Sequence record: OP172792
Length of the DNA: 64,000 nucleotides
Source of the DNA: Escherichia phage ECO340P2
Strand: one strand, 5' to 3'
Part shown: piece by piece, positions 43,291 through 52,591 of the stretch
Layout: every line of letters begins with the position of its first letter
Numbering within the stretch: the first letter of the stretch is position 1
Notes under the pieces: model-generated
What the model saw: the letters and a program-made list of their open reading frames with translations, nothing else
Told to the model about the DNA's origin: nothing
Database searches by the model: none
Made by a program: the position numbers and the translations under genes

Positions 43291-43974
43291 ATGGAAAATA
43301 TTAAAATCGGAGTAGGTGTTATCACTGTAGGTGTCCGTCCACTTAAAGATTACCTTGTAACAGATCCACGTGCAGATTTTCGAGTATTCAACGATCCAGA
43401 TCGTAAAGGTGTAGCTTATGCCAGGAATGAACTTATGCACCAGTTCTATGAAGAAGGTTATGATTATTGGTTTATTTTTGACGATGATTGTTACCCAGTT
43501 ATGGAGGGATGGGAAACATATTTTGTAGACCAAGCTATTTCTGGAAGATGGGATTTCTTTGGTATGCCGGAGTATTTCAAAGATAAAGTTGTCGGAAGCA
43601 AAGGAGAAGTTATTCTCTGGGAACTTGCAATGTGTCAATTTGCAATGTATTCTCGTGCCGTTGTTGAGAAGATGGGTTATTTCCGCCCTTACACTCACGG
43701 TTATGGTTTTGAAGATGCCGAATGGGGACACCGTTTGAAAGCTGCTGGTTTGAATCATGGTATTCAGGCAACACCTTGTCCACTTCGCATTATGGCTTAT
43801 ATTCACCCAGACGATGTTTTTGGAAACAATCCTATGCCTTTTGCTAATCTGACTAAAGAAGAGAAAGAAGCCGCTATTGGGATTAACTGGGAAGAATATA
43901 AAGCGTCTTTAGAGGATATTAAAAATGGGAAAATCCGACTTTCCTATGAGGAGGCAATGGCACATGTCAAATAA
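43291..43974 (+). CDS. GT-A fold (family 2-like) glycosyltransferase
   Basis: FIFDDDCYP and GYGFEDAEWGHRL. Confidence 0.55.
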   Translation: MENIKIGVGVITVGVRPLKDYLVTDPRADFRVFNDPDRKGVAYARNELMHQFYEEGYDYWFIFDDDCYPVMEGWETYFVDQAISGRWDFFGMPEYFKDKVVGSKGEVILWELAMCQFAMYSRAVVEKMGYFRPYTHGYGFEDAEWGHRLKAAGLNHGIQATPCPLRIMAYIHPDDVFGNNPMPFANLTKEEKEAAIGINWEEYKASLEDIKNGKIRLSYEEAMAHVK

Positions 43975-44911
43975 AAAATGGTCTAAACTAAAAATTGATG
44001 CAAAACCTCACAGCGGTTGTGATTATCATCGTATTGTTATGCCATTTGACAACAATAATTTTCAACCTAAAAAAGATATTGTTGTGTTTAACCGTATTCA
44101 CTCTAAAGGAGCAGAATACGTTCTGTCTTTGAAACGTCAAGGTGTTAAGATTGTTGTAGATTTAGATGATTTCTACCAACTTAATCCAGAACACTATTTA
44201 GCAAGTTTATATGAGTCAAACACCCATGCTATTGTAGCTATGGTTAAGCTTGCAGATGTGGTTATTGTGACTACGGAATACTTGGCATATAAAATCCGAC
44301 ATTTAAATAGAAATGTTGTTGTGATCCGAAATGCACTTCCTTTTGATAGTGGACAGTTCACTTTGTCAAATGATCGTTCGTCCGGTACCCCTGTTGTATG
44401 GGCTGGCGGCGCTAGTCATGAACCTGATTTACGACTGGTTTCTAATACTTTTGATGATGAACTTCTTACTATTGCAGGATATGAAGCTTCACAGAGCATC
44501 ACAGGGCAAGAATGGATTAAGATCCGTAGAAATTTACCAAATGCTAAATATAAAGCTGCCGTAAAAGATTTAGATAATTACATGAGTGTTTATGAGAGTC
44601 ATGCTATTGCTATAGCTCCTTTGGTAGATAATGATTTTAATAATTGTAAAAGTAATCTCAAAATCCTGGAAGCTGGAGCAAAAGGTATTCCGATTGTTTG
44701 TTCTAAGGTGTTACCTTATTTTAACCCTGTAGATGCTCGCGCTGTTGCTTATGCAGAGAATAAAGCAGAGTGGCATTACGAAATTGTTAAGCTTCTTCGC
44801 AATCCAAACTATCGGGAAGATCGTGGTTTGTTCTTGGCGGAACATGTTCGAACACATTATAATCTGGCAGATGCAAACGAGTTGCGACGCCAGGTTATTG
44901 AAAGTTTGTAG
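43964..44911 (+). CDS. GT-B fold glycosyltransferase (paralog 1)
   Basis: NCKSNLKILEAGAKGIPIVCS resembles GT4 E..G.P motif; paralogous to next gene. Confidence 0.55.
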   Translation: MSNKKWSKLKIDAKPHSGCDYHRIVMPFDNNNFQPKKDIVVFNRIHSKGAEYVLSLKRQGVKIVVDLDDFYQLNPEHYLASLYESNTHAIVAMVKLADVVIVTTEYLAYKIRHLNRNVVVIRNALPFDSGQFTLSNDRSSGTPVVWAGGASHEPDLRLVSNTFDDELLTIAGYEASQSITGQEWIKIRRNLPNAKYKAAVKDLDNYMSVYESHAIAIAPLVDNDFNNCKSNLKILEAGAKGIPIVCSKVLPYFNPVDARAVAYAENKAEWHYEIVKLLRNPNYREDRGLFLAEHVRTHYNLADANELRRQVIESL

Positions 44912-44918
44912 GTGAAGT

Positions 44919-45863
44919 ATGGGACAAATAATTCTTGACAATCGTAACGGAATCAATTATAGTGTCTGCGATTTCCATAGGGTAGTGCTGCCTTACTCAA
45001 GGCAGTTCTCTTCACAACCTAAACACAACGTTTTCGTTTTTAACGGAGTGCCAACAAAAGGTAAAGAGGGCTTTTTAGCCCTTAAAAACCTAGGCTTTAA
45101 AATGGTTATGGATTTGGATGACTCTTTAGTTATTCCAAAAGGACACATGTTAGAAGGTATTTTTGAATCAGGTATTCGTGAACATTTAAAATGGTTTTTA
45201 GAGCACAGTGACCTTGTTACAACTACGACACCTGCCTTGCAAGTTGAACTTTCACAATACAATGATAATGTGCACATAATCCCTAATGGACTTCCTTACG
45301 ATGAAGGTCAATTTGTGTTGACCCGTGATCGCTACTCCAAATCTCCTTTGGTCTGGGCTGGAAGTGAAACACATAAACAAGATTTGGCTATCTTGCCTGA
45401 TTTTGGTAAAGATCTTACAATATGTGGTTTTCGTAGGGATTCTGAAGTTTTAAGTAGTCGTGAATGGTCTGTAATCAGAGAAAATGTAGCACCAACTTGT
45501 GTTTATGAAGGTGTAAGACCATATTCCAACTACATGGAATCTTACGATGGTCATCAAATCAGTCTTGCACCATTAATCGATAACGTGTTTAATAATGCAA
45601 AAAGCAATCTTAAAATTCTTGAGGCAGGTGCTAAAGGTTTACCTTTAATCTGTTCTCCTCGTGAGAACTATCATACACAAGAGTTTAAAGATTTGTTATT
45701 CTTTGCTGAAACACCTTCCGAGTGGAAAGATATTACGGAATACTTATTAAGTGCTCCCGATGTTTGCATGGAGAAAGGATTAGCATTAGCTAAGTATGTC
45801 AGGACTCATTATCACATTGATGTGTTGAATGAGCGTCGTAGACTTTTATTTGAGGAGCTATAA
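44919..45863 (+). CDS. GT-B fold glycosyltransferase (paralog 2)
   Basis: NAKSNLKILEAGAKGLPLICS; N-terminal CDFHRVVLPY parallels CDYHRIVMPF. Confidence 0.55.
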   Translation: MGQIILDNRNGINYSVCDFHRVVLPYSRQFSSQPKHNVFVFNGVPTKGKEGFLALKNLGFKMVMDLDDSLVIPKGHMLEGIFESGIREHLKWFLEHSDLVTTTTPALQVELSQYNDNVHIIPNGLPYDEGQFVLTRDRYSKSPLVWAGSETHKQDLAILPDFGKDLTICGFRRDSEVLSSREWSVIRENVAPTCVYEGVRPYSNYMESYDGHQISLAPLIDNVFNNAKSNLKILEAGAKGLPLICSPRENYHTQEFKDLLFFAETPSEWKDITEYLLSAPDVCMEKGLALAKYVRTHYHIDVLNERRRLLFEEL

Positions 45864-46153: not shown

Positions 46154-47932
46154 GTGTCGCACATTATAACTAAATATGGATTTGATGTTGATCTTAGCAA
46201 GGAAGGACATACAGGTTGTCCGCGCTGCATGAAAAATGGCAAGGATCGCTCTCGTAATAACCTGATGGTTTATGGATTAGATTCTAATGGAGAGCATAAA
46301 GGTGCTAAGTGCTTTGCGTGTGAATACACTATTCCTAGCGTAGAATGGTTACGAGAAAATGGTGAAGTTTTAGAAGAAGAGGAGGAGATTGTGGGTTCGG
46401 AATTTAATAAACAGATTCATCGTAAAATTGTTCAAGAAACATCAACCAACCCACGTGGTTATCGAGGCATTAAAGAAAAAGTTTCATCTTTCTATGGTGT
46501 TCGTTATGAATACCGTCAGGAAGGGGATCAGATGGTAGTAGAAAGCTGTTTATATCCAACTACTATCGGTAAAGAATTGGTTGGTTTCAAGCGTCGTATT
46601 CATCCTAAAGACTTCAGTAAGCCTATTGGTCAAGTAGGTAAAGATGTAGATCTTTTTGGACAAATTCGTTTTGCAGACCGTTCTCATACTGTTGTAATTA
46701 CAGGTGGTGAACACGATGCTCTGGCAGCTTATCAAATGCTGTCTGAAAACTTGGATAGTAAATATGAGCTTCCAGCAGTAGTAAGTGGCACAACTGGTGA
46801 AACCAGTATGTATAAACAAGTTCAGGCACAATATCCTTTCTTTGAAAAATTTAAGAAAATTATTGTTTGCATGGATAATGACAAAGCAGGTAATGAAGCA
46901 TTTGAAAATATTGTTAAGGTGCTGCCTCGTAACAAAGTATACCGTATGCAGATGGACCTTAAAGATGCCAATCAGTATCTGGAAGAAGGTCGTGCAAAAG
47001 ATTTCGTAAAAGCTTTTTGGAGTGCTCGTCTGTACACACCAGCAGGTGTTTATGCTTCCAACGTCTTGTATGAAGCTGCATTAGAATGCTTGGAATCCAA
47101 GATGATTACCTTGCCTCCTTTTATGCGTGTTGCTGCAAATATGCTGGGTGGTGGTTTAGTAGAAGAAGAGATTACAGTTATCCTGGCAAAGACTAGTATC
47201 GGTAAAACTTTGATGGTGAATGAGATCACCAAACATATTATCGTTGCGCACCCAGAACATACCCTAGGTATTCTGTCCTTGGAAGCAACTTATAAGAAAT
47301 ATTCTCGTAACCTGTTGTCCTCTTTCCTACACATTCCTCTACACAGGAAAACACCTGAAGAGAAATTTCAAATCTTGGAAGAGAATAAAGAAAAAATCCT
47401 AGATTTTTACGAAAGAGAAGATGGATCACCACGTTTTTATGTGTGTGATGATCGTGGAGCAGATGTGGAGTCTATCAAAGAAAAAGTTTTGGAGATGATC
47501 ATCTATTTTGGAGTAACAATTCTTGTTATCGACCCTTATTCTGATTTGCTTTCTGGTATGGATGTTCAAGCCCAGGAAGAGTTAGCAACATGGTTGAAGC
47601 GTATCATGAAAGAATATGCTATAACTATTATCGTCATCTCACACGTTAAGAAATCAGCTAATGGTGGCAATGAACACTTAACAGAAGACGATGCAATGGG
47701 TAGTAGTTTCTTGGCTAAAGGTGCTGGTATTACATTGGCTTTGGAACGAGATAAAGCTGCTGAAGACCCTGTAGAACGCAATACAACTCATTGCTTTATC
47801 CTAAAAAACCGTGAGTTCTCGGAAACTGGTCCGGCAGGGCAGTTTTACTATGACATTAGAACTGCAACTCTGCACGACAAAGAGCAGTATTTCAACAATC
47901 CTGCTAATTTGCCTACGGATAGCAACTACTAA
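46154..47932 (+). CDS. primase-helicase (Zn-ribbon + Toprim-like + DnaB-like helicase)
   Basis: N-terminal CPRC...CFAC; VVITGGEHDALAAY; Walker A KTSIGKT. Confidence 0.7.
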   Translation: MSHIITKYGFDVDLSKEGHTGCPRCMKNGKDRSRNNLMVYGLDSNGEHKGAKCFACEYTIPSVEWLRENGEVLEEEEEIVGSEFNKQIHRKIVQETSTNPRGYRGIKEKVSSFYGVRYEYRQEGDQMVVESCLYPTTIGKELVGFKRRIHPKDFSKPIGQVGKDVDLFGQIRFADRSHTVVITGGEHDALAAYQMLSENLDSKYELPAVVSGTTGETSMYKQVQAQYPFFEKFKKIIVCMDNDKAGNEAFENIVKVLPRNKVYRMQMDLKDANQYLEEGRAKDFVKAFWSARLYTPAGVYASNVLYEAALECLESKMITLPPFMRVAANMLGGGLVEEEITVILAKTSIGKTLMVNEITKHIIVAHPEHTLGILSLEATYKKYSRNLLSSFLHIPLHRKTPEEKFQILEENKEKILDFYEREDGSPRFYVCDDRGADVESIKEKVLEMIIYFGVTILVIDPYSDLLSGMDVQAQEELATWLKRIMKEYAITIIVISHVKKSANGGNEHLTEDDAMGSSFLAKGAGITLALERDKAAEDPVERNTTHCFILKNREFSETGPAGQFYYDIRTATLHDKEQYFNNPANLPTDSNY

Positions 47933-47951: not shown

Positions 47952-47980
47952 AAAATACCTGTTGACAACTGTGCGGAAGG
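47952..47980 (+). promoter_or_regulatory. promoter TTGACA-N17-TATACT
   Basis: near-consensus hexamers. Confidence 0.6.
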
Positions 47981-48023
47981 GATTTATACTTGTCTCATCA
48001 ACCAAACAAGAGGAGAAGTAAAA

Positions 48024-48455
48024 ATGCGTATGACAATCGATCTGAATGCAAAAGTTAAAGCTGCTGGTGCTCTGGGTGCTGGTGTTATTAAACATAAACA
48101 AGCGTTGGCGTTTGCCATCCCACATATGATTGTTGAGGATCATCCTGAAGAGTTTGCTGTAAAAGTTGTTGAGAACAATGTCTCTGTTATTGAACATATC
48201 CCAACTGGACGTTCTTACCGTGTTGTTTCTTCTAAAGGTTTCCGTTTCGATGTAAGCCCTTCTTTCACAAAAGGGGCTGGTCGTAGTAAAGTAGGTATTC
48301 TTTCTTACAAATATTACATCAATAAAGTTGCAGATGGTGTTGCATTCTGTCGTGTAAGTGAGGGTAAAGTAGATATCATCTTTAAAAATACCAAAAACAT
48401 GGTTATTTCTGATGATGGTAAAGTTGACCTCACTATTGAGTTCGCTAACAACTAA
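48024..48455 (+). CDS. hypothetical protein
   Basis: track ORF 47811..48455 trimmed to ATG 48024 downstream of promoter, AGAGGAGAAG RBS. Confidence 0.55.
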   Translation: MRMTIDLNAKVKAAGALGAGVIKHKQALAFAIPHMIVEDHPEEFAVKVVENNVSVIEHIPTGRSYRVVSSKGFRFDVSPSFTKGAGRSKVGILSYKYYINKVADGVAFCRVSEGKVDIIFKNTKNMVISDDGKVDLTIEFANN

Positions 48456-48464
48456 GGAGGACTA

Positions 48465-49259
48465 TTGAGCAAGTTGAACACACTTGATCAATATTACACT
48501 AACCCCGCTTATGCGGGGTTCTTATGTGATAAGATCAAAGAAATTTTTGGAGAGGAAGCTAACTACGTAGAACCATCTGCGGGAGAAGGAGCTTTCTCTT
48601 CTTGTTTTAAAAACATAACTTCTTTTGATATTGACCCTAAGTTTGAAGATTGTATTGAGGCAGATTTTTTAGCCCAATCTGTTGAGTCTGTTGGTAGTGT
48701 AACTGCTTTTGTCGGTAATCCTCCATTTGGAAAAAATGCTAGTCTTGCCATTAAATTCTTTAACCATTGTGCTGAAATGCTAGATAACGAAGGTGGTATT
48801 TGTTTTATCTTGCCTCGCACATTTCAAAAAATCTTTTTTGCACACAAACTAAATCCCCACATGCATCTTCTTTACGAAGAAGAATGTCCAAAAGGATCTT
48901 TTATTCTTCATGGAGAACCTTGGGATGTTCCTTGTGTATTCCAGATATGGATTAAACGCAACGAGAAGCGTTCTCCCGTTGTTTTAGGAGAAAATCGACT
49001 ATTTGTATTAGGCAACAGTAAAGACTACGACATAGCCGTTAGGAGAGCGGGAGCAAGTGCAGGTAAAGTGTTATCAGAAGAAGATTCTTTATCTGAAGCG
49101 TCTACCTATTTTTTAAAAGCCTTGACTTCTGATCTTAAAACGCGTATCATTGAGGCTTACCCGTTACTTAAAGCTGAAGCTAGTAAAACTGCGGGAGTAA
49201 GAAGTTTAAGTTTAAAAGAACTTCAGTGGGTTCTGGAGAACATTAGAAAGGAGGAATAG
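48465..49259 (+). CDS. DNA N6-adenine methyltransferase (orphan)
   Basis: QYYTNP, EPSAGEGAF (motif I), VGNPPFGK (motif IV); TTG start; no adjacent endonuclease. Confidence 0.7.
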   Translation: MSKLNTLDQYYTNPAYAGFLCDKIKEIFGEEANYVEPSAGEGAFSSCFKNITSFDIDPKFEDCIEADFLAQSVESVGSVTAFVGNPPFGKNASLAIKFFNHCAEMLDNEGGICFILPRTFQKIFFAHKLNPHMHLLYEEECPKGSFILHGEPWDVPCVFQIWIKRNEKRSPVVLGENRLFVLGNSKDYDIAVRRAGASAGKVLSEEDSLSEASTYFLKALTSDLKTRIIEAYPLLKAEASKTAGVRSLSLKELQWVLENIRKEE

Positions 49260-52200
49260 TGAGTAAGTTTACATGGGATATTGAAGCAAACGGATTGTTG
49301 AATAATGACACTATTGATTATTTGGCTAGTCCTTATCGTCTCAAAGACACATTTCAAATGCACTGTATTGTCTTAGAGAACCATGAAACAGGAGAAATAG
49401 TAGCTTTCCACGATGGCCCTAAATACATTTTTGATGGGCGTCCTTATGAAGAATCAGATGGTAAATACACGTATGTTCTTAAAGAGTATGTGGCGCAAGA
49501 TTACACACATTTTCAACTAAAAGATTTCCCAGACTTTATTAATCATGAAGGTTATTTTCAAGACAAGCCGGAATATCTGGTTGAAATGGCTGTGGCACAT
49601 AACGGTATCAACTACGACTGGTTGGCTACAAAACTGTTTTACGGATTGGATTACAGTGTTAAATATAATACATGGGGTAAAAGCAAGGTAAAACTTATTG
49701 ACTCCTTGATTTTGAGTAAAGTGTTGAACCCAGATCGAAAGATTGAGGGCAAATCAGGACATAGCTTGGCAGCACTTTCTCGAAAGGCAGGTGGTGATGT
49801 AAAAATAGATTTCCGTAAAGAGATTCCAGAAGAAGATCGATTTAAGACTTTTGCTGCGGATATGCTTTATTACTGTATCTATGACAACAAAGCCAATACG
49901 AGCGTATATAATTACCTTATGGAAGAATGGGGTGATTATGATAAATGGGAAGGTCCGTTTGAACTTGAACAACGTGTAGCAGACATTATTACACGCCAGG
50001 AACACCGTGGGTTTGCTTTTAACATGAAGCAAGCAGAAGAGAACCTTGCTTTTTTGGATGCCGAAATGGAGCGTCTTCGTTTACTCGTTGAGCCTATTTT
50101 GCCACCTAAGCCAGCAACAAAAGGTTATCTTAAGGCTTTTATCCCACCTAAGTTGCAAATTAAAAAGAACTTAGAACCAACTAACCATATGATCAATTTT
50201 GCTAAGAAACATGATGGTCATTTGGAAGAGAGAGATGGGGACTGGTGGTTAGTTATGTTGGGGAAAGAGTGGAAACTGCCAGTTGCAGCAGACGAACCTT
50301 TATGTGATCCTCATATCCCTGCAACATTGAATGATACAACCCATATTAAAAACTGGCTTGTAGGTTTAGGTTGGGTACCATCAGAATATAAAGATAAAGA
50401 CTTGACTCTTAAATCTGGCACCAAGATTAAAAAGAGTGAGGAAGAACTTCAGAAAGGTATTCGAGCTTACGTTGAGCAAACTCTATCTTCTAATTTTTGT
50501 CAGGATCGTTGTGATCACCTTGAGTGCACACCGGAAACCTTAGAAAGGAAAATTCAAGAGCGTATAGCAAAAGGTAAAGGTCGCGGTCTTAAAGTGTTGA
50601 CTAACCCATGTTTTACCAAAGGTCAGGAAAAAGAAATTTGTCCTAACCTGCAAGCTTTGGGTGAGAAATTTCCTTATGCTACACAGATTGTAGAATACTT
50701 AACGTATAAACATCGTAGGAACTCTATTTTAGGTGGTGGTGCTGATTGGGAAGAAGACGAAGAAGATCAAGAATACGATAAAGGTTTCTTAGCCGCAGTA
50801 AGGGCGGATGGTCGTATTCCTACCCCAGCCGCTACATGTGATGCTGCAACCTCTCGTATGAAGCATAGGTCTGTCGCTAATATTCCTCGTGTTACATCTT
50901 TGTTTGGATGGGAGATGCGTAACCTGTTTGGTGTGGAGGTTCCTAAATACTTCCAGATCGGCTACGACTTCGACTCTTTGGAAGCAAAAATTGAATCACA
51001 CTACTGTGTGCCGATGGATGCTCAAGCTTTGACTCGTAAAGGTTGGGTAGGATATCACGACCTGAAGGAAGGGGATGAGATTTTAGGGTACAATGCTGAA
51101 ACAGGTCTGAAAGAATGGACTAAAGTAAAAGGTAAGGTCTTCTATAAAAATAGTAAGACGTTTGAGATTAAAGGGAAATCACACACTTACCGTGCAACAG
51201 CAGATCACCGTTGGTATGTTAATACCCGTAGTAAAGGGAATACTTATGTGCCTAAAGTCAGAACAACTGCCGAGCTTTGCACAGGAGATAACATTATTTG
51301 TAATGCTCCATTTAATATGGAACAAGATCAGGTAAATAGTTTAACTTCTGTTCAACAAGGTAAATGGGATGTTCCGTGGGTAGAACGTGTAGTTAATATG
51401 TCTCATGCCGAGCGTGTAGCTTTCTTGGAAGGTTTCTTGATTGCAGATGGTTACTGGCACGAACATAAACAAAAACCTGTTTGGCGTTGGGCGCAGAACC
51501 CAGGTGAACTTTTTGAAGCAGCTTTAACTGCCTCGTACCTGGTGCATGGAGGCAATATCTCTGTAGCTTTCAATACAAAAGAGCAGAAAGTAAAAGTGGC
51601 AACATTGACTAACCGCTCTCACATTCCTGTTCAAAGTTTGACTATTGAAGAGTGGGGTGTAGAGGATGTTTGGTGTCCACAAACAGAACTTGGTACGTGG
51701 GTCATGCGTCAGAAAGACTGCATTACCATCACAGGAAACTGTTGGCGGTACGAGCCGGAGCCACACGAGTATTGTAACGCTCTGTTGTTAGAGAAACCTA
51801 ATGATGTTCACACAATGATGGCAAAACGTATCACTGAAACTATCGGACGTAAATTTGAACGTAGTCCTGCTAAATCTGTTAAGTATGGTATTACCTATGG
51901 TGCACAAGCCGACAAGGTTGCTAAAACAATTGGTAGCGATAAGTTTACAGGTCAATTAGTGTTTGATGCTTTCTGGGAAGCTGCATTCCCATTGGCGCGT
52001 CTTAAAGAACGTTTAAACGATTTCTGGGTTAAGACTGGTAAACAATATGTTTTGGGTATTGACGGTCGTAAGGTTCCTACTCGTTCTGCTCACGCGATTC
52101 TTAACTCTCTGTTCCAAAGTGGTGGGGTTATCTGTGCTAAACGTGCAATGGTTATTTATGACGACATGATCGAAGAAGAAGGACTAAGTGTTGACTTCTT

Positions 52201-52591
52201 TAAAGATGACTGGAAGAATAAAGACTTCGTGCAACAAATGATTGCATATCACGATGAAGCCCAGCTTGAAGTTTCTCGTAACCTTGTAGAATTTAAATGG
52301 TTTTCACCTGAATCATTAGGTTGGAAGAAAGTAGACGATCCTGAAGAACAAAAGAAAATTGATAAAGAATGCCTTGCTAAAGTTGAAGAATGGAAGCATA
52401 ATAAGGAAAAAGAGACGGGACAAATTTGGGCTAACATTCATGAATCTCCCAAAGGTGGATGGTTTACAGCCTATAGTCGGGCAGGTGAACTTGCTGCCTT
52501 AGCTGTTACTAAGGCTGGAGAATTTTACAATCTTAATGTTCAGCTTACTGCCGGATATGATGTGGGTAATTCTTGGGCGTCCTGTCACTGA
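49259..52591 (+). CDS. family A DNA polymerase with 3'-5' exonuclease domain, interrupted by putative intein
   Basis: Exo I FTWDIEANGL; motif A-like GYDFDSLEAKI; motif B-like RSPAKSVKYGITYGAQ; 245-aa insertion between them; GTG start. Confidence 0.75.
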   Translation: MSKFTWDIEANGLLNNDTIDYLASPYRLKDTFQMHCIVLENHETGEIVAFHDGPKYIFDGRPYEESDGKYTYVLKEYVAQDYTHFQLKDFPDFINHEGYFQDKPEYLVEMAVAHNGINYDWLATKLFYGLDYSVKYNTWGKSKVKLIDSLILSKVLNPDRKIEGKSGHSLAALSRKAGGDVKIDFRKEIPEEDRFKTFAADMLYYCIYDNKANTSVYNYLMEEWGDYDKWEGPFELEQRVADIITRQEHRGFAFNMKQAEENLAFLDAEMERLRLLVEPILPPKPATKGYLKAFIPPKLQIKKNLEPTNHMINFAKKHDGHLEERDGDWWLVMLGKEWKLPVAADEPLCDPHIPATLNDTTHIKNWLVGLGWVPSEYKDKDLTLKSGTKIKKSEEELQKGIRAYVEQTLSSNFCQDRCDHLECTPETLERKIQERIAKGKGRGLKVLTNPCFTKGQEKEICPNLQALGEKFPYATQIVEYLTYKHRRNSILGGGADWEEDEEDQEYDKGFLAAVRADGRIPTPAATCDAATSRMKHRSVANIPRVTSLFGWEMRNLFGVEVPKYFQIGYDFDSLEAKIESHYCVPMDAQALTRKGWVGYHDLKEGDEILGYNAETGLKEWTKVKGKVFYKNSKTFEIKGKSHTYRATADHRWYVNTRSKGNTYVPKVRTTAELCTGDNIICNAPFNMEQDQVNSLTSVQQGKWDVPWVERVVNMSHAERVAFLEGFLIADGYWHEHKQKPVWRWAQNPGELFEAALTASYLVHGGNISVAFNTKEQKVKVATLTNRSHIPVQSLTIEEWGVEDVWCPQTELGTWVMRQKDCITITGNCWRYEPEPHEYCNALLLEKPNDVHTMMAKRITETIGRKFERSPAKSVKYGITYGAQADKVAKTIGSDKFTGQLVFDAFWEAAFPLARLKERLNDFWVKTGKQYVLGIDGRKVPTRSAHAILNSLFQSGGVICAKRAMVIYDDMIEEEGLSVDFFKDDWKNKDFVQQMIAYHDEAQLEVSRNLVEFKWFSPESLGWKKVDDPEEQKKIDKECLAKVEEWKHNKEKETGQIWANIHESPKGGWFTAYSRAGELAALAVTKAGEFYNLNVQLTAGYDVGNSWASCH
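51005..51739 (+). mobile_element. putative intein (245 aa) with LAGLIDADG-like motif inside the polymerase
   Basis: begins with Cys after motif A, TADH block, LEGFLIADGYW, ends ..ITGN followed by Cys; removal restores normal A-to-B spacing. Confidence 0.5.

What the first reader, a model, noticed from the sequence alone, without database searches (positions are those of the whole stretch)
48465..49259. Orphan N6-adenine methyltransferase between replication genes
Motifs I and IV are clear, and no restriction endonuclease is adjacent. It is likely a phage self-protection or regulatory methylase.
Basis: partly seen in the sequence, partly recalled or inferred. Interest (0 to 1): 0.35.

Follow-up and report, generated by a model that had tools for sequence, protein, structure and literature searches.

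The report
Phage GTAC adenine methylase with nuclease-like partner
The gene is a real, already annotated DNA adenine methyltransferase of a phAPEC8-like coliphage; it most likely methylates GTAC, and it is paired with a small restriction-enzyme-like gene, so it is probably not a true orphan.

Summary
The ORF at 48465-49259 (+, 264 aa, TTG start) is real. It is phAPEC8 gp078, annotated "putative DNA N6-adenine methyltransferase". All gamma-class motifs are conserved, the model is confident, and the nearest folds are M.BseCI, M.TaqI, CamA and HsdM.

1. The target is probably GTAC. In Vequintavirus Bas51, published nanopore data show GATC and GTAC fully 6mA-methylated. GATC belongs to a different 177-aa enzyme. 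GTAC methylation persists in that enzyme's mutant.

2. Across 80 viral contigs carrying this family, GTAC is specifically depleted (O/E 0.46, against 0.81 in 120 control loci). The sister genus Justusliebigvirus lacks the gene and shows no depletion (0.78, against 0.33 in Phapecoctavirus).

3. The gene is not clearly an orphan. Family members sit beside two restriction-endonuclease families. The 143-aa gene directly upstream (48024-48455) is a conserved partner, homologous by profile comparison to one of those families. Its canonical catalytic residues are not kept.

The specificity and the partner's activity are inferred, not shown. The finding is a new member of a known kind, of moderate interest.

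The parts
47962..47990 (+). Sigma-70-like promoter (TTGACA-17-TATACT, 11 of 12 matches) upstream of the two-gene cassette.
   Evidence: Found. It is at the same position as the 'putative host dependent promoter' annotated in phAPEC8. This is a consensus match only; the total number of promoter-like sites in the region is not above the shuffled controls.
48024..48455 (+). 143-aa partner gene (PHROG 9938, 'unknown function'). It is a distant homolog of a small PvuII-like type II restriction endonuclease family. Its nuclease activity is uncertain.
   Evidence: Homologs lie directly beside the methyltransferase in Vequintavirus (30% identity, E=9e-13) and in 9 of 80 IMG/VR loci. hhalign against the RM2 endonuclease family gives 94.7% probability, E=5.8e-8, over 113 columns. 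The shared motif is P-S-x3-G-x-G-R. The AF2 model has pLDDT 83.9, and only weak PD-(D/E)XK-type fold hits were found. The RM2 catalytic residues (E44, D65, E75-x-K77) are not aligned to conserved acidic residues; conserved instead are E39, K67, D77, K84, R88 and K90. The gene is absent, together with the methyltransferase, from Justusliebigvirus alia.
48454..48461 (+). Shine-Dalgarno sequence (AAGGAGGA) for the methyltransferase. It overlaps the stop codon of the upstream gene.
   Evidence: Read directly from the sequence.
48465..49259 (+). Gamma-class SAM-dependent N6-adenine DNA methyltransferase, 264 aa, TTG start. The predicted target is GTAC.
   Evidence: specificity inference.
48486..48500 (+). 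Motif X (D8-Q-Y-Y-T12).
   Evidence: D8 and T12 are at least 90% conserved.
48570..48596 (+). Motif I, SAM binding (E36-P-S-A-G-E-G-A-F44).
   Evidence: E36, P37, A39, G40 and G42 are invariant.
48627..48629 (+). Motif II acidic residue D55.
   Evidence: Invariant.
48717..48728 (+). Motif IV, catalytic N85-P-P-F88.
   Evidence: N85, P86 and P87 are invariant; F88 is at least 90% conserved.
48822..49256 (+). C-terminal family-specific domain (about residues 120-264). It is the presumed target-recognition domain.
   Evidence: It carries conserved blocks (VPCVFQIW, RRVGxxAGK, TAGVRS). The PADLOC type II methyltransferase profile covers residues 21-254. pLDDT is above 90. The target-recognition role is inferred by analogy with M.TaqI.
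49259..52591 (+). Family A DNA polymerase gene. Its start codon overlaps the methyltransferase stop codon (TAGTG), so the two are probably translationally coupled.
46154..47932 (+). Primase/helicase gene, the upstream boundary of the cassette.
   Evidence: In Justusliebigvirus alia the primase/helicase and polymerase genes are about 0.5 kb apart with no cassette between them.

Best explanation
The gene encodes a gamma-class, SAM-dependent DNA N6-adenine methyltransferase. It most likely methylates the adenine of GTAC on both strands of phage DNA. It forms a two-gene cassette with the 143-aa gene just upstream, which descends from a small PvuII-like restriction endonuclease family. The cassette sits between the primase/helicase and DNA polymerase genes, downstream of a sigma-70-like promoter. 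The methyltransferase stop codon overlaps the polymerase start codon, so the enzyme would be made while phage DNA is replicated. Methylated GTAC would block any GTAC-directed nuclease, whether from the host, from a competing element, or the phage's own partner if that protein is still active. Shown here: the identity, motifs and fold of the methyltransferase; the linkage of the family to endonuclease genes; the specific GTAC depletion in genomes that carry the family. Inferred: that this enzyme writes GTAC; that the partner acts on GTAC; the timing of expression.
For: Enzyme class. All gamma-class motifs are conserved. The AF2 model has pLDDT 93.6. The top PDB folds are M.BseCI, the StySJI M subunit, M.TaqI and CamA. 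PADLOC MTase_II matches at E=1.6e-36 over the full length.

Restriction-modification ancestry. In 15 bacterial loci a roughly 215-aa gene overlaps the methyltransferase gene downstream, and 14 of 14 tested members hit PADLOC REase_II PDLC03460. A second partner family hits REase_II PDLC03550. Of 80 IMG/VR loci, 19 have the first partner type, 22 the second and 9 the 143-aa type, nearly all overlapping the methyltransferase gene or within 100 nt of it.

GTAC in Vequintavirus. Bas51 virion DNA has 1405 methylated adenines in GATC and 509 in GTAC. The T83P mutant has 35 in GATC and 511 in GTAC (PMC12548924). Residues D69, D79 and T83 fit the 177-aa methyltransferase, not the ortholog of this gene. 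A close relative of Bas51 has 702 GATC and 261 GTAC sites, so both motifs are essentially fully methylated on both strands. The only other adenine methyltransferase in Bas51 is a type III Mod homolog (E=1.5e-205). From general knowledge, such enzymes usually write asymmetric motifs on one strand.

GTAC across the family. GTAC O/E is 0.46 in 80 family-bearing viral loci and 0.81 in 120 control loci. GTAC is the most depleted of the 16 four-base palindromes in 33 of 70 family loci and in 3 of 70 controls (Fisher p=3e-9). The other palindromes do not differ between the two sets. The result holds after dereplication (13 of 36 against 3 of 70, p=3.7e-5).

Natural experiment. Phapecoctavirus anhysbys has the cassette and GTAC O/E 0.33. 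Justusliebigvirus alia lacks the cassette and has 0.78. The window itself has 75 GTAC sites against 205 expected.
Against: No methylome exists for any Phapecoctavirus. The enzyme is only 55% identical to the Vequintavirus ortholog. In Bas51 the GTAC assignment is by elimination; the intact type III Mod-like enzyme has not been excluded experimentally. Site depletion is correlative, and protective methylation alone would predict relaxed rather than stronger avoidance. Bacterial loci carrying family members show no GTAC signal (0.82 against 0.78). No Pfam or NCBIfam model reaches its cut-off. The partner protein lacks the canonical D...ExK residues of its endonuclease relatives and has no significant structural match. 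The BASEL study found Vequintavirinae and relatives exceptionally sensitive to the restriction systems tested, although none of the systems named in the passages read targets GTAC.
Confidence: 0.6

Rival explanations
1. It is a true orphan protective methyltransferase. It writes GTAC (or another short motif) only to defeat host restriction. The upstream 143-aa protein is a decayed or repurposed non-nuclease, for example a DNA-binding accessory protein, with no restriction role.
For: The partner family has no conserved counterpart of the RM2 residues E44, D65 and E75. It has no PADLOC, Pfam or significant PDB fold hit.
Against: The partner is conserved at 20-30% identity beside the methyltransferase in distant phages and in both gene orders. 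This argues for selection on a joint function. Protection alone does not explain why carriers purge GTAC.
Confidence: 0.25
2. It is a DNA adenine methyltransferase with a target other than GTAC. GTAC methylation in Vequintavirus is made by the type III Mod-like enzyme, and the GTAC depletion has another cause.
For: The Mod-like gene is intact in Bas51. The gene-to-motif assignment in Bas51 is by elimination only. Bacterial loci show no GTAC signal.
Against: Phapecoctavirus has no Mod-like gene yet shows the strongest GTAC depletion. The depletion tracks the gamma-class family across diverse viral contigs. Both strands of a palindrome are fully methylated in Bas51, which is typical of type II enzymes.
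Confidence: 0.1
3. It is an RNA (rRNA or tRNA) m6A methyltransferase of the METTL5/Ta1320 kind, not a DNA enzyme.
For: The best sequence-profile matches in the PDB are Ta1320 (E=1.2e-4) and METTL5 (E=6e-3), ahead of M.TaqI (E=0.34). JGI names some homologs 'predicted RNA methylase'. TrmN and KsgA appear among the fold hits.
Against: The similarity covers only the shared N-terminal Rossmann motifs. The top fold hits are DNA methyltransferases. There is a full-length match to type II DNA methyltransferase profiles. Family members are repeatedly and tightly linked to endonuclease genes.
Confidence: 0.03

Closest known systems
M.TaqI, M.BseCI and CamA (gamma-class N6-adenine DNA methyltransferases with solved structures)
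   Same: They share the motif order X-I-II-III-IV followed by a C-terminal recognition domain, the NPP(Y/F) catalytic motif, and the Rossmann fold. They are the best Foldseek matches (E about 4e-8 to 5e-7).
   Different: Sequence identity is only 13-19%. TM-scores are modest (0.41-0.57). This protein is much shorter (264 aa against 390-560), with an unrelated compact C-terminal domain. No Pfam model reaches its cut-off.
M.HpyAXII and bacterial M.PabI homologs (GTAC-specific gamma-class adenine methyltransferases; PMC2588503, PMC4615327)
   Same: They are gamma-class enzymes with motif IV near residue 87 (N87 there, N85 here) and a short C-terminal recognition domain. [quoted passage not shown] The target is GTAC with 6mA.
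   Different: Their partner is a PabI-type DNA glycosylase. The partners found here show no PabI match in a PDB profile search. M.HpyAXII is 331 aa. No direct sequence comparison was possible, because no M.HpyAXII sequence was available in the tools.
The 177-aa GATC methyltransferase of Vequintavirus Bas51 (a retron trigger; PMC12548924)
   Same: It is a phage-encoded adenine methyltransferase of the same phage group that fully methylates a four-base palindrome. A 47.6%-identical homolog exists in Phapecoctavirus.
   Different: It is a different family and a different gene. It lies outside this window and writes GATC, not GTAC.
PvuII-like small type II restriction endonucleases (reference for the partner gene)
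   Same: The RM2 partner family has the D-x9-E-x-K spacing. From memory, this spacing also fits PvuII residues D58, E68 and K70. The family also shows weak PvuII hits (Pfam E=0.21; PDB 3ksk E=0.48) and a PADLOC REase_II hit. The window's 143-aa protein aligns to RM2 at 94.7% hhalign probability.
   Different: The 143-aa protein does not keep those acidic residues and gives no significant match to any solved nuclease.

Membership tests
Gamma-class N6-adenine DNA methyltransferases | Linear order of motifs X, I, II, III, IV, followed by a C-terminal target-recognition domain. | tested here: met
   DQYYT (8-12), EPSAGEGAF (36-44), D55, DF (67-68) and NPPF (85-88), then a conserved 140-aa C-terminal domain.
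Gamma-class N6-adenine DNA methyltransferases | Catalytic motif IV (D/N/S)PP(Y/F) is conserved. | tested here: met
   N85, P86 and P87 are invariant and F88 is at least 90% conserved in 42 sequences.
Gamma-class N6-adenine DNA methyltransferases | Fold similarity to solved members. | tested here: met
   The model has pLDDT 93.6. M.BseCI, HsdM, M.TaqI and CamA are the top hits at probability 1.00, with TM-scores of 0.41-0.57.
Gamma-class N6-adenine DNA methyltransferases | Match to a curated family model (Pfam N6_Mtase, Eco57I, or NCBIfam). | tested here: not met
   The best match is Eco57I at E=0.017, 15.6 bits, against a cut-off of 25.3. NCBIfam gives nothing. Some homologs carry a precomputed PF26055 hit, but that model gave no hit when two such homologs were scanned against the Pfam copy at hand, so it could not be identified.
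Gamma-class N6-adenine DNA methyltransferases | Demonstrated transfer of methyl to N6 of adenine in DNA. | not testable with these tools
   Only indirect evidence exists: GTAC 6mA in Bas51 that does not depend on the GATC enzyme.
Type II restriction-modification system (methyltransferase plus cognate endonuclease) | Family members are genetically linked to restriction endonuclease genes. | tested here: met
   Partners hitting PADLOC REase_II PDLC03460 and PDLC03550 lie adjacent in 19 bacterial loci and 41 viral loci.
Type II restriction-modification system (methyltransferase plus cognate endonuclease) | An active endonuclease gene lies adjacent in this window. | tested here: inconclusive
   The gene at 48024-48455 is homologous to the RM2 endonuclease family. 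It lacks that family's canonical acidic residues and has no significant nuclease fold hit.
Orphan (solitary) phage DNA methyltransferases | No cognate endonuclease or endonuclease-derived gene is linked. | tested here: inconclusive
   No recognisable endonuclease is found by PADLOC or Pfam. However, a conserved endonuclease-derived neighbour is present.
METTL5/Ta1320 RNA m6A methyltransferases | Single Rossmann domain of about 200 aa with no nucleic-acid recognition domain, and no link to restriction genes. | tested here: not met
   The match covers N-terminal motifs only (E=1.2e-4, residues 4-108). A conserved extra C-terminal domain is present, and the family is linked to endonuclease genes.
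PabI-family GTAC restriction-modification systems (M.HpyAXII with R.HpyAXII) | The partner is a PabI-type DNA glycosylase. | tested here: not met
   PDB profile searches with all three partner families give no PabI hit. Pfam scans of the A2 and RM2 families also give no PabI-type hit.
PabI-family GTAC restriction-modification systems (M.HpyAXII with R.HpyAXII) | Sequence homology of the methyltransferase to M.HpyAXII or M.PabI. | not tested
   No M.HpyAXII or M.PabI sequence was available. Only descriptive similarities come from PMC2588503 and PMC4615327.

The most novel reading that the evidence does not exclude
The 143-aa partner is an active, non-canonical GTAC-directed nuclease. On this reading, phAPEC8-like and rV5-like virulent coliphages, and many uncultured large phages, carry a complete miniature restriction-modification system inside their replication module. 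They would use it to degrade host or competitor DNA, and the strong GTAC purge of their own genomes would be self-protection during replication.
Probability: 0.3. Interest if true: 0.65.

Novelty: new member of a known kind. Interest (0 to 1): 0.42.

Why it matters
This gene is annotated in dozens of therapeutic-candidate coliphages as a generic 'putative adenine methyltransferase'. Giving it a testable target (GTAC) would explain the unassigned GTAC methylation seen in Bas51. It also predicts resistance to RsaI-, KpnI- and PabI-type restriction, and it provides a specificity candidate for a family of more than 2000 proteins that no Pfam or NCBIfam model in the copies at hand matched at its cut-off. 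The paired endonuclease-like gene and the GTAC purge suggest that a restriction-modification-derived cassette shapes the genome composition of large virulent phages. That bears on host range and on defence-system triggering.

Tried and rejected
- Pfam and NCBIfam scans of the methyltransferase and its homologs gave no hit at the cut-offs. PF26055 could not be identified.
- A PDB sequence search favoured METTL5/Ta1320. I rejected the RNA-methylase reading because the match covers motifs only, and because fold and gene context point to DNA.
- GTAC avoidance in 10-kb bacterial loci gave no signal (0.82 against 0.78). It was uninformative.
- Literature searches for methylomes of rV5, phAPEC8 or Phapecoctavirus, and for GTAC methyltransferases in giant viruses and marine metagenomes, found nothing direct. 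The retron paper was the only exception.
- Two attempts to build control sets from RNR and PhoH alignments returned only 5 and 7 loci. I used a random 14-mer instead.
- NCBIfam and Pfam scans of the partner families did not name them.
- Fold searches of the partner model gave no significant named match.
- I considered the type III Mod-like enzyme as the GTAC writer. I down-weighted it because Phapecoctavirus lacks it and because the GTAC signal follows the gamma-class family.

Full report
**Source and observation**

The window is 97-98% identical at the nucleotide level to Phapecoctavirus coliphages such as anhysbys and phAPEC8, in the subfamily Stephanstirmvirinae. The ORF at 48465-49259 (+) is present as described: 264 aa with a TTG start. 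An AAGGAGG ribosome-binding site lies just upstream. The TAG stop overlaps the GTG start of the family A DNA polymerase gene. The upstream neighbours are a 143-aa gene (48024-48455) and the primase/helicase gene (46154-47932).

The gene is phAPEC8 gp078, annotated 'putative DNA N6-adenine methyltransferase'. The same annotation appears in rV5-like phages at about 54% identity. The bare observation is therefore confirmed and already known.

**What the protein is**

A 42-sequence alignment shows the full gamma-class motif series:
- motif X, D8-x-Y-Y-T12
- motif I, E36-P-S-A-G-x-G-x-F44
- motif II, D55
- motif III, D67-F68
- motif IV, N85-P-P-F88

These are followed by a conserved 140-aa C-terminal domain. 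The AlphaFold model is confident (pLDDT 93.6). Its best PDB matches are the adenine DNA methyltransferases M.BseCI, a type I M subunit, M.TaqI and CamA.

Curated models do not capture the family. Pfam and NCBIfam give nothing at their cut-offs, and PHROG 5172 is labelled 'unknown function'. PADLOC's type II methyltransferase profile PDLC03255 matches at E=1.6e-36 over the whole length.

A sequence-profile search of the PDB ranks the RNA methyltransferases Ta1320 and METTL5 first. That match covers only the N-terminal Rossmann motifs and is outweighed by the fold and gene-context evidence.

**Gene context of the family**

The family has 2465 members at E<=0.001. I examined 79 bacterial loci. 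In 15 of them a roughly 215-aa gene overlaps the methyltransferase gene downstream, and 14 of 14 tested members hit PADLOC REase_II PDLC03460. Four further loci carry a roughly 160-aa partner that hits REase_II PDLC03550.

This second family, called RM2 here, conserves E44, D65 and E75-x-K77. From memory, that spacing fits the PvuII catalytic residues. It also gives weak PvuII hits.

Among 80 IMG/VR viral loci, 19 carry the first partner type and 22 the second. Nearly all overlap the methyltransferase gene or lie within 100 nt of it, in several gene orders. This is the signature of a type II restriction-modification methyltransferase family.

**Specificity**

The retron study PMC12548924 sequenced Vequintavirus Bas51 natively:

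| Phage | 6mA in GATC | 6mA in GTAC | 6mA elsewhere |
|---|---|---|---|
| Bas51 wild type | 1405 | 509 | 576 |
| Bas51 methyltransferase T83P | 35 | 511 | 349 |

Residues D69, D79 and T83 fit the 177-aa methyltransferase (...D69...D79-C-I-I-T83-NPPY). They do not fit the 272-aa ortholog of the present gene. GATC is therefore written by another enzyme, and GTAC methylation is phage-borne and unassigned. From my own knowledge, E. coli K-12 has no GTAC methyltransferase.

A close relative, EmilHeitz, has 702 GATC and 261 GTAC sites. Both motifs are therefore essentially fully methylated on both strands.

Bas51 is phage WalterGehring. It has only two other adenine methyltransferases:
- a type III Mod homolog (PADLOC MTase_III, E=1.5e-205)
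- the gamma-class ortholog of this gene

Full two-strand methylation of a palindrome favours the gamma-class enzyme. This is an inference by elimination.

**Independent support from site statistics**

I tested the link using a maximal-order Markov expectation for the 16 four-base palindromes.

| Sequence set | GTAC observed/expected | O/E |
|---|---|---|
| This window | 75 / 205 | 0.37 |
| Phapecoctavirus anhysbys, whole genome | 151 / 456 | 0.33 |
| 80 family-bearing viral loci, pooled | 1440 / 3108 | 0.46 |
| 120 control viral loci, pooled | 2518 / 3094 | 0.81 |

In anhysbys, GTAC has the lowest O/E of all 16 palindromes. The control loci were drawn with an arbitrary 14-mer pattern. In the family-bearing set the next lowest palindrome is at 0.72.

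GTAC is the single most depleted palindrome in 33 of 70 family loci of at least 8 kb, against 3 of 70 controls (Fisher p=3e-9; Mann-Whitney p=8e-13). GATC, GGCC and CATG are alike in the two sets.

The result survives GC matching. It also survives dereplication at 60% methyltransferase identity: 13 of 36 against 3 of 70, with median O/E 0.50 against 0.84. It holds in every partner class: 0.44, 0.42, 0.50 and 0.48.

A natural experiment agrees. Justusliebigvirus alia belongs to the same subfamily (primase/helicase 70% identical, polymerase 74-87% identical). It has no copy of the methyltransferase and a GTAC O/E of 0.78.

Phapecoctavirus has no Mod-like gene. It carries only this enzyme, a homolog of the GATC enzyme and a Dcm-like enzyme. 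I put GTAC specificity for this family at roughly 0.75-0.8. Bacterial loci gave no signal.

**The neighbour**

The 143-aa gene at 48024-48455 is missing together with the methyltransferase in Justusliebigvirus. Homologs lie directly beside the methyltransferase in Vequintavirus, there downstream (30% identity, E=9e-13), and in nine IMG/VR loci. Thirty-six family members exist, several of them on the same contigs as methyltransferase homologs.

Profile-profile comparison with the RM2 endonuclease family gives 94.7% probability (E=5.8e-8, 113 columns), with a shared P-S-x3-G-x-G-R motif. The two HMMs also cross-hit each other's members.

The RM2 acidic residues are not matched, however. The conserved positions in this family are E39, K67, D77, K84, G85, R88 and K90. 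The model (pLDDT 83.9) has only weak similarity to PD-(D/E)XK proteins such as Hjc resolvase and HinP1I.

The protein is therefore endonuclease-derived and functionally tied to the methyltransferase. Whether it still cuts DNA is open. This makes 'orphan' doubtful.

**Mechanism proposed**

A sigma-70-like promoter (47962-47990) precedes the cassette. It is at the same site as phAPEC8's annotated promoter. The methyltransferase is probably translationally coupled to the polymerase. It would therefore act as phage DNA is replicated, marking GTAC on both strands.

Protection would extend to GTAC-containing hexamer sites. From my own knowledge, M.KpnI methylates the adenine of GGTACC, and RsaI is blocked by GTm6AC (PMC2588503).

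The coupling of methylation with strong site avoidance is best explained if the lineage carries, or carried, its own GTAC nuclease, or if it meets intense GTAC restriction. The BASEL report that these phages are very sensitive to restriction systems does not contradict this. None of the systems named in the passages read targets GTAC.

**Verdict**

This is a new member of a known kind. Two testable additions are the GTAC specificity and the endonuclease-derived partner. Interest is moderate.

Noticed in passing
window 49259-52591, insert at about 51008-51739: The DNA polymerase gene is 3333 nt here and in anhysbys, but 2598 nt in phAPEC8. The extra 244 aa (residues about 584-827) interrupt the polymerase domain, begin with Cys and end with ...TGN/C. 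They give a weak Intein_splicing hit (E=0.007, below the cut-off). This is probably an intein. Other relatives carry an HNH endonuclease near this spot.
   Followed up: partly
window 43925-45863, and upstream: Two paralogous glycosyltransferase genes (PHROG 7162) are part of a run of four annotated in phAPEC8. They sit right next to the replication genes. The genome also encodes dTDP-rhamnose synthesis enzymes. The substrate, whether DNA or a surface glycan, is unknown.
   Followed up: no
whole window; anhysbys genome (L096-L098): GGCC and CCGG are also strongly depleted (O/E 0.26 and 0.43 in the window; 0.42 and 0.37 genome-wide). They are depleted in Justusliebigvirus as well, so this is independent of the GTAC cassette. 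A Dcm-like cytosine methyltransferase is encoded elsewhere in the genome.
   Followed up: partly
L088:14475-15800 (EmilHeitz/Bas49), compared with L090 (WalterGehring/Bas51): The type III Mod-like methyltransferase of Vequintavirus is intact in Bas51 (441 aa). In EmilHeitz the gene is annotated only from an internal start; in the upstream sequence the N-terminal reading frame ends at a run of six T, and one T fewer would restore the full-length frame. This could be a sequencing error, a pseudogene or phase variation. The roughly 350 'other' 6mA calls in Bas51 might be its asymmetric motif.
   Followed up: partly
window 48465 and L089:29211: The methyltransferase uses a TTG start codon in both Phapecoctavirus and Vequintavirus despite only 55% protein identity. 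This may keep expression of the enzyme low. By comparison, the retron study reported that the unrelated GATC methyltransferase of Bas51 was toxic when expressed alone.
   Followed up: no
L117, L121, L130, L153 (IMG/VR giant-virus MAG contigs): Members of this methyltransferase family occur on contigs labelled as giant-virus MAGs. One (L130) has an adjacent RM2-type small endonuclease gene, and in L121 GTAC is absent altogether (0 observed, 25 expected). The family is therefore shared between phages and nucleocytoplasmic large DNA viruses.
   Followed up: no
window, about 18 kb and about 56 kb: GC skew changes sign near 18 kb and again near 56 kb. These points appear to mark changes in the direction of transcription between gene blocks.
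   Followed up: no
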